A stretch of DNA of 64,000 nt from Naegleria gruberi (lineage: Eukaryota), in the NCBI GenBank assembly GCA_000004985.1, contig GG738845.1. The stretch is one strand, 5' to 3'. Under the pieces are notes generated by a model. The model worked only from the letters and a program-made list of their open reading frames with translations, made no database searches and was not told where the DNA came from. Below are positions 29,824 to 32,545 of the stretch, piece by piece; positions within the stretch are counted from its first letter, which is position 1, and each line of letters starts with the position of its first letter. A program made the translations under genes and the position numbers.

Positions 29824-30489
29824 TCGCTTTGATGACCTGAGAAATTCTAGCTCCTTTCTTAAGTTCTCCACCTCTTGTTTTAAAGTTTCGTACTCCAATA
29901 AATCAATAGTAATTGTTGCTCTTTGTTTATCCTCAAGGTAGATATCTTGTTCCTCATAATCATGATTAACACTCTCCATTTCAAATCTTAATGAATCATA
30001 TCCTTTCTTTAAATTATTTTGAGAATTATGAACTACTTGTTGTGATAGTGAAGGTGATTTTTTAACAATGGCTAGGTTCTCTTCAGTCTTTTCAACACCA
30101 TCATCAATAAATTTAACTTGATAAATTGAATTGAGGGCATGAACAGCAAGAACTTACTTGAATTATTTTCAAACTGATCATCATTTTCTTGGTATTGCAT
30201 GAATAGAAAGTCTTCATTTTCTAGTTCTTTATTTTGGCTGGAAGTTGTAGTAATGTGCACGGAGTTTTTCTTGCCATTGAGTTGTGTTCTTTGTAAGAAG
30301 TCTATATCAAGAGGAATTCTAGGAGATGTTTTTGTTGTTTTGACCACACAATTAGTTTTATTCTTTTGGAAAAATTCAAGTTGTGTTTGTTGATTATTCT
30401 TCTTTCCAACTCTTGAACGTGCTCCTAATTTAAGGCTTTAAAAATGACAAAAGTCAACAGCATTACTTACCACCAGTCCAGCGTTTCAT
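29824..30489 (-). CDS. Small (about 110-190 aa) protein with a C-terminal coiled coil; the 5' structure is uncertain. The 3' exon is about 29824-30101 and the upstream exon about 30148-30455.
   Basis: A GTAAGT..AG intron of about 46 nt joins the exon ...QYQENDDQFENNSS to IKFIDDGVEKTEEN...LEYETLKQEVENLRKELEFLRSSKR*. A candidate ATG (MKRWTG, followed by GTAAGT) at 30489 lies only 5 nt past the stop codon of the upstream gene. The start may instead be the internal MQYQ. Confidence 0.35.
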
Positions 30490-30493
30490 TTTT

Positions 30494-32545
30494 TTATTGT
30501 TTCGATTTTTGATCGAGATAATTCTTCAGATGATACTGTATCAGTTGTACTAACATCACCTCAGCATTCCCTCCAATGCCATTCCTTCTTGAAAACTCTT
30601 TTGCAACATTAGTTGCAATGTCACCTTCCCTAATGGTCAAAATTTTACTATTTCCCTCACTAATTTCGACGTCAAGGTTGAATAATGTTTTTCTTTTTGG
30701 CTCTGGTTTAAAATCTCTTTCCATATTTGGTTTAATTTGAAGTGGTGGTTGTAATACCTCTTCTGGTTGGTCTGATTCCTGCTCCACTTCCAAATGTTTC
30801 TTAATTTTCTCAACAATCTTTGGTAATTGTTCTCTTTTTAATCCAAATGTATTGATAAAATTTTTTGCAAGTTCTGTAATGTCATCACCTTCTCTAACCA
30901 TTATAACACCACTCTTTCCCTTTGAAATCGTGATTTTTAATTGGAGAATTGGAGGTCTGATTGGTCTTGTTTGTAAATGATCTGAAGCAAAATTGAAAGG
31001 TTGAAATGACGTAGAATTTTGAAACAAGGAATGTGCTGTTTGGTTGAATTGTTCTGCTTCTCTAATTTTTGGATTATTATTCTTTTTAAAAGAATCAGTT
31101 CCTTGTTGCTTTTCTATATATTTGTTGATGGAGTTTCTTATGTTGAACGCTATTTCTTGTCTTAATTTGGGATCTACTTGATGTTGTTTAATAACAAGAT
31201 CAGCAAGTTGGAATATGTTGTCTCCAGAAACAACACCAACTTTACATATTCTTCCCTCTCCTAGATTGATTGATAATATTAATTTTGCTCCAGAGTTGTC
31301 AAAAGTTGTTACAGGTCTGAAATAATTTAGTTTTTGAGGATTAGGAAATAAGTCAGTTTCAACAACGGGTACGACAAAGCCCTCCTTTGTCTCTTGATAG
31401 CTTTGAACCTTATGAGTAAAATTGGCTTTGGTTGATGAAGGAAATCTTAGTTCTTCTTGTGTTTCTGTAGTTGGAGGAAGTGTAATAAATCCTGAGGCAT
31501 TGATTCCATACATTTCACTATTGGTTTGAAAATCGTTGAAATCTGGTACATAAGAATCTTGTATTTGTTTTGATCTGGCGAAATCAGTTGGTGTTTGAGA
31601 AGATGAGCTCACCTTCTTTTTTAATTGGGATGTTGGAGTCCTAAACTCATCAGTTAAATTTGGACCAGTATTGTACAGGGGTATTTTTGATTGTTCGACA
31701 TTAGAGGGTTGAGGTTGTGAACTGTTGTAATTTTGATTCATAGAAGAAGGGATATTTTGATAGAGACTTGTTTCATTTCTGGAATGAGGATTATTTTGAT
31801 AATTCATGGAATTGATGCTATCATCATTCGTAGATGGAGGGTTATTTTGGTACAGGTTTGATTCAATTCTGGAATGAGGATTATTTTGGTGCATACTTGA
31901 TCCATTTCTTGGTGTTGTTGGTAACACTTGAAATGATGATGAACTAATTTCTTGTGGAATATCATCGTTTTCTTTTAAAATAGAAACCAAATGGGATATC
32001 CTTATTAACAAAATACTCAAGGTTAAATCCATATTTGTTCCTATTTTTGGAGAAACCTCCATAAAAAAAAGACCATTCCCAACGCCATAATTACCAGCCT
32101 CTTCTCTTTTTAAAATATACGATTTACAAAAGTTTTCACAATCCTTAATAGATGAAACCTTTCTTGATGTGTCAGTTTTTGTACCTAGTAGCATTATATT
32201 AACATTTGGAGAAAATTTTTCAAACCAGTCCAACCATACACTTGTTGCATTAATCCATGATTGATTATTACTTGTGTCATATACAATCAAAACAAAGTTT
32301 GTTTTCTCTGAGAGAACTTCGTTATATGACGACGGAGGTTCCCCCCATCCAAAAACGTAAAAATCAACAAAATATTGATTGTTAATTTCCATTCTCGTTA
32401 TTTCCGCTTGAGAATTTTTTCTTTTTTCAATGAATTTTCCATTCTTTTTACTTGCACTCCAACTTGAAACTACACTACTCTTTCCAACAAACCGATCTCC
32501 ACAAACAAGAACCTTAATCACTGTTTTTTCAGTTAGTTGAGGCAT
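30494..32545 (-). CDS. Divergent small-GTPase-like domain fused to three Raf-type Ras-binding-domain-like (ubiquitin-fold) repeats. Single exon, 683 aa.
   Basis: The N-terminus carries a P-loop KVLVCGDRFVGKSSV and an NKxD-like motif LLGTKTD, but has no DTAGQ switch II. Three repeats of about 55 aa follow at 30508-31273: ILSINLGEGRICKVGVVSGDNIFQLADLVIK, LKITISKGKSGVIMVREGDDITELAKNFINTFGLKREQLPKIV and LDVEISEGNSKILTIREGDIATNVAKEF. These resemble the c-Raf RBD [37 protein letters not shown]. Confidence 0.6.
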   Translation of the reverse strand: MPQLTEKTVIKVLVCGDRFVGKSSVVSSWSASKKNGKFIEKRKNSQAEITRMEINNQYFVDFYVFGWGEPPSSYNEVLSEKTNFVLIVYDTSNNQSWINATSVWLDWFEKFSPNVNIMLLGTKTDTSRKVSSIKDCENFCKSYILKREEAGNYGVGNGLFFMEVSPKIGTNMDLTLSILLIRISHLVSILKENDDIPQEISSSSFQVLPTTPRNGSSMHQNNPHSRIESNLYQNNPPSTNDDSINSMNYQNNPHSRNETSLYQNIPSSMNQNYNSSQPQPSNVEQSKIPLYNTGPNLTDEFRTPTSQLKKKVSSSSQTPTDFARSKQIQDSYVPDFNDFQTNSEMYGINASGFITLPPTTETQEELRFPSSTKANFTHKVQSYQETKEGFVVPVVETDLFPNPQKLNYFRPVTTFDNSGAKLILSINLGEGRICKVGVVSGDNIFQLADLVIKQHQVDPKLRQEIAFNIRNSINKYIEKQQGTDSFKKNNNPKIREAEQFNQTAHSLFQNSTSFQPFNFASDHLQTRPIRPPILQLKITISKGKSGVIMVREGDDITELAKNFINTFGLKREQLPKIVEKIKKHLEVEQESDQPEEVLQPPLQIKPNMERDFKPEPKRKTLFNLDVEISEGNSKILTIREGDIATNVAKEFSRRNGIGGNAEVMLVQLIQYHLKNYLDQKSKQ

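What the first reader, a model, noticed from the sequence alone, without database searches (positions are those of the whole stretch)
30470..30500. A candidate start codon lies 5 nt after the stop codon of the GTPase-RBD gene, so the downstream small gene is either an operon member or an alternative 3' exon
The 683-aa GTPase-RBD ORF ends ...LDQKSKQ TAA. Five nucleotides later on the same strand an ATG opens MKRWTG, followed directly by a GTAAGT donor. An acceptor (aattag) then continues the same frame into an exon of about 100 aa, and a second 46-nt intron leads into a C-terminal coiled-coil exon that ends at 29824. The alternatives to a 190-aa protein starting at that ATG are two. The small gene may begin at the internal MQYQ, perhaps on a trans-spliced acceptor. 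Or these exons may be alternative 3' exons of the upstream gene. The exon also contains QQTQLEFF, which loosely resembles a PIP-box (QxxLxxFF).
Basis: seen in the sequence. Interest (0 to 1): 0.5.

Follow-up and report, generated by a model that had tools for sequence, protein, structure and literature searches.

The report
Unannotated small gene packed against neighbour
In this amoeba (Naegleria gruberi) genome, a previously unannotated three-exon gene for a 193-residue helical protein starts four bases after its neighbour's stop codon; such tight packing is normal here and does not by itself indicate an operon or an alternative exon.

Summary
The window is Naegleria gruberi; the upstream ORF is NAEGRDRAFT_61085, a Ras-like GTPase with PFU-like repeats. 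TAA is at 30496-30494, the spacer is 4 nt, and the ATG is at 30489. Exon 1 is 19 nt, intron 1 is 46 nt (GTAAGT..TTAG), exon 2 is 267 nt, and intron 2 is 41 nt rather than 46 (GTAAGT..CAAG). Exon 3 ends with TAG at 29821, giving 193 aa.

Intrinsic evidence favours a real gene. Two long same-strand open frames were matched by 0 of 5,000 shuffles. Coding scores are typical of the window's genes only in the proposed frames. Intron lengths and consensus match local introns. The AAAAAATG context marks at least 17 of 24 gene starts here. Both exon 2 differences in a 99% identical strain are synonymous.

There are no homologues anywhere, no annotation and no conserved synteny, so it is an orphan.

Spacers of 19-53 nt between unrelated conserved tandem genes occur in the same window, and the GTPase stop lies inside AATAAA. 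The best reading is an independent gene whose transcript overlaps its neighbour's. The alternative-3'-exon reading is disfavoured, and operon-type expression is unsupported but not excluded. The PIP-box is not canonical. Overall this is ordinary, apart from being a missed gene.

The parts
30494..32545 (-). Upstream gene NAEGRDRAFT_61085: 683-aa Ras-family GTPase with three C-terminal PFU-like repeats; stop TAA at 30496-30494
   Evidence: Exact match to XP_002683358.1. Pfam Ras 2.8e-11, Roc, PFU at threshold. Orthologues at 41-42% identity in N. lovaniensis and a Logan assembly, aligned to within about 4 residues of the C-terminus.
30493..30498 (-). AATAAA hexamer containing the GTPase stop codon (cAATAAa); a likely poly(A) signal for the GTPase mRNA
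   Evidence: Sequence. AATAAA lies within -6..+64 of 10 of 24 gene ends against an 8% background, and the stop is embedded in cAATAAa at 4 gene ends. Its function is inferred.
30490..30493 (-). 4-nt spacer AAAA between the stop and the next ATG; part of a 7-A run that forms the start-codon context
   Evidence: AAAAAATG occurs 24 times among 2,286 ATGs, and at least 17 of those open evident genes.
30471..30489 (-). Exon 1 of the small gene: ATG + 16 nt (MKRWTG, phase 1)
   Evidence: Short first coding exons occur in neighbouring genes (10 nt at 34379, 52 nt at 35481, 51 nt at 7590).
30425..30470 (-). Intron 1, 46 nt, GTAAGTAAT...AAATTAG
   Evidence: It matches local introns of 40-59 nt with GTAAGT or GTATGT donors, for example the homology-supported ParcG intron GTAAGTAAT..ATAAG, 48 nt. 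It is identical in strain L001.
30158..30424 (-). Exon 2, 267 nt (89 codons): basic, then acidic, N/Q/T-rich segment; contains QQTQLEFF
   Evidence: Stop-free model gives 0.134 LLR/codon in frame, reached by 0.9% of off-frame windows and at the 38th percentile of coding windows. With the stop penalty the score is 0.241. Two differences from L001 are both synonymous third-position changes.
30117..30157 (-). Intron 2, 41 nt, GTAAGTTCT...TTATCAAG; shifts the frame
   Evidence: AAG acceptors are common among local introns (18949-18995, 33938-33985, 38783-38827, 53337-53376, 55377-55421).
29821..30116 (-). Exon 3, 293 nt coding + TAG stop (29823-29821): long helical, coiled-coil-like C-terminal part
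   Evidence: 0.230 LLR/codon, reached by 0.05% of off-frame windows. Its open frame scores above all 72 shadow ORFs. AlphaFold2 single-sequence model: helix 21-96, mean pLDDT 83. No relatives in 1.84 billion representatives.
26513..29815 (+). Convergent neighbour: 1100-codon Ser-rich, coiled-coil ORF with a hydrophobic C-terminal tail; its TAG stop ends 5 nt from the small gene's stop
30549..30554 (-). GTTAGT inside the GTPase CDS: the only consensus donor that could join the GTPase frame to the exon 2 frame (via AAG at 30436, 119-nt intron)
   Evidence: The T at 30553 is C in L001, destroying the GT.

Best explanation
The interval 29821-30489 (minus strand) is a genuine but unannotated Naegleria gruberi protein-coding gene with three exons (19 + 267 + 293 nt coding) and two typical short introns (46 and 41 nt). 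It encodes a 193-aa lineage-specific protein. The protein has a basic N-terminus, a polar low-complexity middle and a C-terminal helix of about 75 residues that probably forms a coiled-coil dimer.

The ATG at 30489 is its start codon. The 4-nt gap to the GTPase stop is the extreme end of this genome's normal head-to-tail packing and does not point to a special expression mechanism.

The most likely mechanism, which is inferred and not shown, is this. The GTPase mRNA is cleaved and polyadenylated a few tens of nucleotides after the AATAAA that contains its stop codon. The small gene is transcribed separately from a start site within the last codons of the GTPase gene, so the two mRNAs overlap slightly. 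At its 3' end the small gene's transcript likewise overlaps the convergent coiled-coil gene.

Shown: the ORF structure, coding statistics, splice-site and start-context fit, and absence of homologues. Inferred: transcription, transcript boundaries and protein function.
For: - Organism and upstream gene identified.
- The splice arithmetic gives one uninterrupted 193-aa frame.
- Open frames of 121 and 110 codons on one strand: 0 of 5,000 dinucleotide shuffles.
- Codon-usage scores are positive only in the proposed frames, 0.241 and 0.338 against 0.287±0.118 for real genes and an off-frame 99th percentile of 0.058.
- With stops ignored, the scores are 0.134 and 0.230, reached by 0.9% and 0.05% of off-frame windows. 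The exon 3 frame exceeds all 72 shadow ORFs.
- Thirteen other likely introns in the window are 40-59 nt. Ten have GTAAGT donors and five have AAG acceptors. The ParcG intron is confirmed by homology to N. lovaniensis.
- AAAAAATG is a strong marker of gene starts (at least 17 of 24 sites), and micro first exons occur at 34379, 35481 and 7590.
- In a 99% identical strain, both exon 2 differences are synonymous, and exon 1 plus intron 1 are unchanged.
- Tight tandem pairs of unrelated Pfam-identified genes have 19-, 28- and 53-nt spacers.
- AATAAA is enriched at gene ends and overlaps the stop in four genes, including this GTPase.
- Heterolobosea show monocistronic-type genome organisation.
- Exon 3 folds as a long helix.
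Against: - No transcript, EST or peptide evidence could be consulted.
- There is no homologue in 5.8 billion clustered proteins, 1.84 billion representatives (exon 3 only), JGI metagenomes or the orthologous loci of two other Naegleria.
- No existing N. gruberi annotation contains it.
- It lies at a synteny breakpoint, so it could be young, fast-evolving or decaying.
- The exon 2 score is only mid-range, and its sequence is low-complexity.
- The polymorphism evidence is only two sites (chance about 0.05).
- No promoter, transcription start or poly(A) site has been defined in Naegleria, so the overlapping-transcript model is an analogy.
Confidence: 0.6

Rival explanations
1. Not a functional gene. 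The interval is 3'-UTR or intergenic sequence, or a decaying or very young proto-gene, whose open frames and splice-like signals are not used to make a protein.
For: There are no homologues anywhere and no annotation. It sits at a synteny breakpoint absent from N. lovaniensis and the L002 species. GTAAGT is no more frequent than chance in the window. Exon 2 is low-complexity with a mid-range score.
Against: The open-frame pair was reached by 0 of 5,000 shuffles. Coding scores are frame-specific. The start context and both introns fit local consensus at exactly frame-preserving positions. Both polymorphisms are synonymous. A 678-nt gap between convergent genes would be unusually large here, where convergent stops lie 5-38 nt apart.
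Confidence: 0.15
2. Operon-like expression. The GTPase and the small gene are co-transcribed on one dicistronic mRNA. The small ORF is then translated by termination-reinitiation at UAAAAAAAUG, or after processing or trans-splicing.
For: The two ORFs share a strand with a 4-nt spacer, leaving no room for a conventional promoter. Several other tandem pairs have spacers of 19-28 nt. Polycistronic mRNAs are now documented in green algae (PMC7896298), reported for Cryptosporidium (abstract listed), and are the rule in the related Euglenozoa.
Against: Heterolobosea have about 2 genes per directon, with no heavy tail and intergenic ratios like yeast, and no Naegleria SL or polycistron report was found. 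Leaky scanning is impossible past a 683-codon ORF with a strong start context and 36 AUGs. From general knowledge, reinitiation after long ORFs is inefficient. AATAAA overlapping the stop suggests the GTPase mRNA ends here. The pair is not conserved in other Naegleria.
Confidence: 0.12
3. The gene is real, but translation starts at the internal Met (MQYQ, ATG at 30200). This would give a 112-aa protein from a transcript that begins downstream of intron 1.
For: It would avoid any overlap with the GTPase gene. MQYQ is in frame, and the strongest coding signal is in exon 3.
Against: The frame is stop-free for 79 codons upstream of that Met (expected probability about 0.001 from the composition), and exon 2 as a whole scores as coding. 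Out-of-frame ATGs precede MQYQ in exon 2. MQYQ lacks the A-run start context that 30489 has.
Confidence: 0.07
4. Exons 2 and 3 are alternative 3' exons of the GTPase gene, joined from a donor inside its last codons. This would replace the C-terminal ~20 residues by a tail of about 190 aa.
For: A GTTAGT donor at 30554 and an AAG acceptor at 30436 (119-nt intron) would join the GTPase frame to the exon 2 frame, which is open back to 30437.
Against: That donor is GCTAGT in a 99% identical strain. The splice would truncate the third PFU-like repeat, whose C-terminus is conserved in N. lovaniensis up to the present stop. The orthologues have no comparable downstream exons; a convergent AAA_33 gene lies 134 nt away. 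A 119-nt intron is outside the local 40-59-nt mode. The GTAAGT at 30470 is in the wrong phase for the GTPase frame.
Confidence: 0.04

Closest known systems
Ordinary short-intron genes of Naegleria gruberi with a micro first exon (for example the Ras/Arf-like gene at window 34379 and the gene at 35481)
   Same: An A-run before the ATG, a first coding exon of 10-52 nt, GTAAGT/GTACGT/GTATGT donors, introns of 40-59 nt and NAG acceptors that include AAG.
   Different: Those genes have recognisable families or orthologues. This one has none and is missing from the public annotation.
Overlapping transcription in compacted eukaryotic genomes (microsporidia, nucleomorphs; Williams et al. 2005 and Corradi et al. 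2008, as cited in PMC3629993)
   Same: Neighbouring genes are so close that transcripts must start inside the upstream gene or end inside the downstream one. Spacers here are 4-53 nt, and convergent stops lie 5-25 nt apart.
   Different: N. gruberi is a free-living amoeba with a 41-Mb genome that is 57.8% coding, not a reduced parasite genome. Transcript ends were not mapped here.
Polycistronic mRNAs of green algae (PMC7896298)
   Same: Two independent, out-of-frame ORFs lie on one strand, separated by a very short inter-ORF sequence.
   Different: The algal model fits leaky scanning past the upstream start, tunable by its Kozak-like context. Here the upstream ORF has 683 codons, a strong start context and 36 AUGs. 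Co-transcription is untested.
SL trans-spliced operons / polycistronic units (kinetoplastids, euglenids, nematodes)
   Same: Same-strand genes with minimal spacing, in a relative of Euglenozoa.
   Different: Heterolobosea show no directional gene clusters. No spliced leader is reported for Naegleria in the literature searched. The downstream gene has its own cis-introns and an A-rich rather than pyrimidine-rich region before the ATG.
PCNA-interacting PIP-box proteins
   Same: QQTQLEFF contains Q, L and FF in the right order, near a basic N-terminus.
   Different: The spacing is off by one in either register (QxxxLxFF or QxxLxFF) relative to Qxx[ILM]xx[FY][FY]. Equally loose matches occur 7 times in 12,218 aa of other window proteins.

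Membership tests
Spliceosomal short introns of N. gruberi (local type) | GT donor with GTAAGT/GTATGT-type consensus | tested here: met
   Both introns start with GTAAGT. Ten of 13 other likely introns in the window do so, and three start with GTATGT.
Spliceosomal short introns of N. gruberi (local type) | Length in the local range and an AG acceptor that restores an open coding frame | tested here: met
   46 and 41 nt against a local range of 40-59 nt. TAG and AAG acceptors are both used locally. The joined frame is open for 193 codons.
Spliceosomal short introns of N. gruberi (local type) | Removal from mature RNA | not testable with these tools
   No N. gruberi transcript data were reachable. 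The exact-sequence look-ups found no spliced product.
Protein-coding gene | Frame-specific coding statistics beyond chance | tested here: met
Protein-coding gene | Conservation or purifying selection | tested here: inconclusive
   No homologues were found. Only two intraspecific differences exist, both synonymous.
Alternative 3' exon of the upstream GTPase gene | A conserved, phase-compatible donor inside the upstream CDS | tested here: not met
   The only consensus candidate (GTTAGT at 30554) is GC in strain L001. The GTAAGT at 30470 is in the wrong phase.
Green-algal-type polycistronic mRNA | Upstream start codon that scanning ribosomes can bypass to reach the downstream ORF (leaky scanning, as favoured in PMC7896298) | tested here: not met
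   The upstream ORF has 683 codons, an AAAAAATG context and 36 AUGs before 30489.
Green-algal-type polycistronic mRNA | Both ORFs on a single capped, polyadenylated transcript | not testable with these tools
   This needs long-read cDNA.
SL trans-spliced operon | Directional gene clusters and a spliced-leader RNA in the organism | tested here: not met
   Literature only: about 2 genes per directon in Heterolobosea, and no Naegleria SL report among the papers found. The window itself alternates strands frequently. No SL gene search was made.
PIP-box (PCNA-interacting peptide) | Qxx[ILM]xx[FYW][FYW] | tested here: not met
   A regex on the 193-aa product gave no match. Only a relaxed pattern matches.
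Overlapping transcription units of compact genomes | Intergenic spacers too short to hold both a terminator and a promoter | tested here: met
   4 nt here, and 19, 28 and 53 nt between unrelated Pfam-identified genes.
Overlapping transcription units of compact genomes | Mapped transcript ends lying inside the neighbouring gene | not testable with these tools
   This needs 5'/3' RACE or long reads.

The most novel reading that the evidence does not exclude
The GTPase and the small gene, and by extension the other N. gruberi tandem pairs with spacers of 30 nt or less, are expressed from dicistronic mRNAs. The downstream ORF would be translated by termination-reinitiation across UAA-AAAA-AUG. That would place a form of polycistronic expression in Heterolobosea, the sister group of the lineage in which polycistronic transcription became universal.
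Probability: 0.1. Interest if true: 0.7.

Novelty: new member of a known kind. Interest (0 to 1): 0.25.

Why it matters
The practical result is a correction to the N. gruberi gene catalogue: a 193-aa orphan coiled-coil protein appears to have been missed, plausibly because it abuts two neighbours. The wider point is that head-to-tail spacers of 4-30 nt between unrelated genes recur in this free-living amoeba. Its promoters and poly(A) sites must therefore lie inside neighbouring genes, or some genes are co-transcribed. Neither possibility has been mapped in Naegleria, so cheap long-read cDNA data would settle a basic question about gene expression in a close relative of the polycistronic Euglenozoa.

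Tried and rejected
- **Homology for the spliced 193-aa product:** nothing in the 5.8-billion protein set, only sub-threshold Pfam noise, nothing in JGI metagenomes, and nothing for exon 3 in 1.84 billion representatives.
- **Positional orthology:** the downstream neighbours in N. lovaniensis and L002 are AAA_33 and COX15, which are not in the window. tblastn of the small protein against both loci gave only noise.
- **Orthologues of the convergent 1100-aa gene:** I tried to find these to test synteny from the other side. The low-complexity query saturated the candidate list and returned nothing, not even a self-hit, so that test remains undone.
- **ncRNA, tRNA and repeat explanations:** none found.
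- **Stop-codon readthrough:** rejected. The ATG is in the +1 frame relative to the GTPase, and the GTPase frame hits TAA 8 codons on.
- **Alternative genetic code (TAA/TAG = Gln):** rejected, because ORFs of 683-1100 codons lack any TAA or TAG.
- **PIP-box:** rejected on spacing.
- **Shared promoter motif:** visual inspection of the regions upstream of 22 starts showed only A/T richness and the A-run.
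Full report
**Identity of the window.** The window is AT-rich (about 31% GC) and packed with long ORFs on both strands. The 683-aa ORF at 32545-30494 (minus strand) is identical to Naegleria gruberi XP_002683358.1 / NAEGRDRAFT_61085, named 'predicted protein'. Pfam finds a Ras-family GTPase domain (2.8e-11), a weak Roc match and a PFU match at threshold in the C-terminal half. 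The standard genetic code applies, since ORFs of 683 and 1100 codons contain no TAA or TAG.

**Checking the observation.** On the minus strand the GTPase ORF ends ...KSKQ with TAA at 30496-30494. AAAA follows at 30493-30490, then the ATG at 30489-30487. The 19-nt first exon ATGAAACGCTGGACTGGTG runs directly into GTAAGT at 30470. A 46-nt intron ends AATTAG at 30425. Exon 2 (30424-30158, 267 nt) is open in the same frame and ends at a second GTAAGT at 30157. Exon 3 runs to TAG at 29823-29821. The spliced product is 193 aa. The convergent 1100-codon ORF on the plus strand ends at 29815, only 5 nt from the small gene's stop.

**Is it more than chance?**
- The 678-nt interval between the two flanking ORFs carries stop-free frames of 121 and 110 codons on the same strand. 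In 5,000 dinucleotide-preserving shuffles the longest frame reached 121 codons in 1% of cases, and the same-strand pair was never reached.
- A codon-usage log-likelihood model trained on 17 long ORFs of the window gives 0.241 (exon 2) and 0.338 (exon 3) per codon in the proposed frames, and negative values in the other five. Real genes give 0.287±0.118, and the off-frame 99th percentile is 0.058.
- With stop codons removed from the model, exon 2 scores 0.134 (38th percentile of coding windows, reached by 0.9% of off-frame windows). Exon 3 scores 0.230 (71st percentile, reached by 0.05%).
- The exon 3 open frame scores above all 72 shadow ORFs in the window.

**Do the signals look like real N. 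gruberi signals?**
- I collected introns in the window where two coding-like frames are joined and the unspliced frame terminates quickly. The thirteen besides this locus are 40-59 nt. Ten begin GTAAGT and three GTATGT, and five end in AAG.
- One of them, in the ParcG gene (33938-33985, GTAAGTAAT...ATAAG, 48 nt), is supported by homology to the N. lovaniensis locus.
- The Ras/Arf-like gene at 34379 opens with a 10-nt first exon (ATGGTGGAAA|GTACGT) and a 46-nt intron. Genes at 35481 and 7590 have first coding exons of 52 and 51 nt.
- GTAAGT is not over-represented in the window overall (26 observed against 26.5 expected). The argument therefore rests on position, not frequency.
- The start context is informative. 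AAAAAATG occurs 24 times among 2,286 ATGs on both strands, and at least 17 of these open an evident gene, including the GTPase itself, ORC6 and the micro-exon genes. The candidate has seven A's before its ATG.

**Comparative evidence.**
- A metagenome contig (L001, ENA ERZ929261) carries a 99% identical copy of the GTPase gene and extends to window position 30121.
- It has 12 differences in the 2,052-nt GTPase CDS (7 synonymous). There are none in the spacer, exon 1 or intron 1. There are two in exon 2, both third-position synonymous changes in the proposed frame: GGC>GGT and CAG>CAA. This is supportive but weak, with a chance probability of about 0.05.
- Orthologues of the GTPase exist only in Naegleria: N. 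lovaniensis and a Logan assembly, at 41-42% identity.
- Upstream synteny (Arf-like gene, ParcG, a 137-aa gene) is kept in N. lovaniensis. Downstream of the stop codon, however, the orthologues are followed by a convergent AAA_33 gene 134 nt away and then COX15, and neither of those is in the window. tblastn of the small protein against both loci gives only noise.
- The spliced protein has no homologue in the 5.8-billion-protein collection, and no exact entry for three alternative starts. It has no Pfam family and no relative in JGI metagenomes. Exon 3 has none in 1.84 billion representatives.
- If real, the gene is therefore an unannotated orphan located at a synteny breakpoint.

**How unusual is the 4-nt spacing?** It is not unusual in kind.

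| Upstream gene (stop) | Downstream gene (ATG) | Spacer |
|---|---|---|
| Glu/Gln-tRNA synthetase (24714) | ORC6 (24694) | 19 nt |
| RING-finger gene (50906) | tRNA-binding-domain gene (50877) | 28 nt |
| Exportin-5 (21471) | cyclic-nucleotide-gated channel (21525) | 53 nt |
| ParcG | Ras-like gene | 82 nt |
| HEAT-repeat gene | PDCD2-like gene | 86 nt |

All family assignments are by Pfam. Convergent stops lie 10 nt apart at 10497/10508. Promoters and 3'-end signals must therefore routinely lie inside neighbouring genes, or transcripts must overlap or be shared.

**Where the GTPase mRNA probably ends.** AATAAA occurs within -6..+64 nt of 10 of 24 gene ends, against 8% of random windows. In four genes, including this GTPase, the TAA stop is embedded in cAATAAa. 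If AATAAA is the poly(A) signal, which is an inference, the GTPase mRNA ends within the first exon or intron of the small gene.

- *Alternative 3' exon.* The GTAAGT at 30470 is in the wrong phase for the GTPase frame. The only consensus donor that would join the GTPase frame to exon 2 is GTTAGT at 30554, via AAG at 30436 and a 119-nt intron. Its T is a C in L001. Such a splice would also remove the end of the third PFU-like repeat, which is conserved to within about 4 residues of the stop in N. lovaniensis.
- *Operon.* Comparative work on Discoba finds about 2 genes per directon and yeast-like intergenic ratios in Heterolobosea. I found no report of spliced leaders or polycistrons in Naegleria. 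The green-algal mechanism fits leaky scanning past the upstream start. Here the upstream ORF has 683 codons, a strong start context and 36 AUGs. Co-transcription with reinitiation cannot be excluded from sequence alone.
- *Internal MQYQ start.* The frame is open for 79 codons upstream of that Met (about 0.001 by the composition), exon 2 scores as coding, and out-of-frame ATGs precede MQYQ.
- *PIP box.* QQTQLEFF fails Qxx[ILM]xx[FY][FY] in either register. Equally loose matches occur 7 times in 12,218 aa of other window proteins.

**The protein.** Residues 1-45 are basic (24% K+R) and the middle is acidic and N/Q-rich. The exon 3 peptide is predicted, from a single sequence, as one long helix (residues 21-96 of 97, mean pLDDT 83), with a weak leucine-zipper-like Pfam echo. 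The most likely role is a small coiled-coil, probably dimeric, adaptor or structural protein. That assignment is an inference with low confidence.

**Other exclusions.** The interval has no Rfam family, no tRNA and no significant repeats.

**Verdict.** The proposed dichotomy of operon or alternative exon is not needed. The best-supported reading is an independent, tightly packed gene whose transcript overlaps its neighbours', as described for other compact eukaryotic genomes. Promoters and transcript ends are undefined in Naegleria, so the expression mechanism remains inferred. Interest is low to moderate. The locus itself is ordinary for this genome. The recurrent spacers of 30 nt or less are a small open question that long-read cDNA would resolve.

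Noticed in passing
window 24694-24716 (-) and 50877-50908 (-): Unrelated conserved genes lie head-to-tail with tiny stop-to-ATG spacers. Glu/Gln-tRNA synthetase to ORC6 is 19 nt, and RING-finger to tRNA-binding protein is 28 nt. Exportin-5 to the cNMP-gated channel is 53 nt (21471/21525).
   Followed up: partly
window 7477-7483 (+), 10492-10498 (+), 30493-30498 (-), 58383-58389 (-): The stop codon TAA is embedded in cAATAAa at four gene ends. AATAAA lies within about 65 nt of 10 of 24 gene ends, against an 8% background, which suggests an AATAAA-type poly(A) signal that often overlaps the stop.
   Followed up: partly
whole window, e.g. 1022, 3499, 4734, 6130, 24694, 32545, 49134, 59808, 62909: AAAAAATG is a near-diagnostic start-codon context: at least 17 of 24 occurrences open an evident gene.
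   Followed up: partly
window 10497/10508, 29815/29821, 50282/50308: Convergent genes have stop codons only 10, 5 and 25 nt apart, so their 3' UTRs must overlap the opposing coding sequence.
   Followed up: no
window 30494-31290 (-): The GTPase protein carries three repeats of about 55 aa (motif ...I.V.EGDD/I...A..F...) that match Pfam PFU only at threshold. The whole architecture has orthologues only in Naegleria (3 proteins in the 5.8-billion set).
   Followed up: partly
window 30494 versus L003 8241-8375: Synteny with N. lovaniensis (Arf-like, ParcG, 137-aa gene, GTPase) ends exactly at the GTPase stop codon. AAA_33, COX15, acetyltransferase and methyltransferase genes follow there, and none of them is in the window.
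   Followed up: partly
window 26513-29815 (+): An 1100-codon ORF has a Ser-rich N-terminus, a long coiled coil and a hydrophobic C-terminal tail (tail-anchor-like). There is no exact entry in the protein collection, and the homology search saturated without returning even a self-hit.
   Followed up: no
window 34379-34900 (+): A Ras/Arf-like gene has a 10-nt first coding exon and several introns of 40-50 nt (GTACGT and GTTAGT donors); an intron near 34708-34818 looks longer, about 110 nt.
   Followed up: partly
window 53607-53648 (+): A sense-strand GTAAGT lies inside a long ORF with a TTTTAG acceptor 42 nt later and no in-frame stop. It could be a stop-free, in-frame intron, or just a chance site.
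   Followed up: no
L001 (ENA ERZ929261, run ERR1078381): An environmental metagenome contains a Naegleria 99% identical to strain NEG-M over 2.9 kb. It is a possible source of further polymorphism data for N. gruberi genes.
   Followed up: partly
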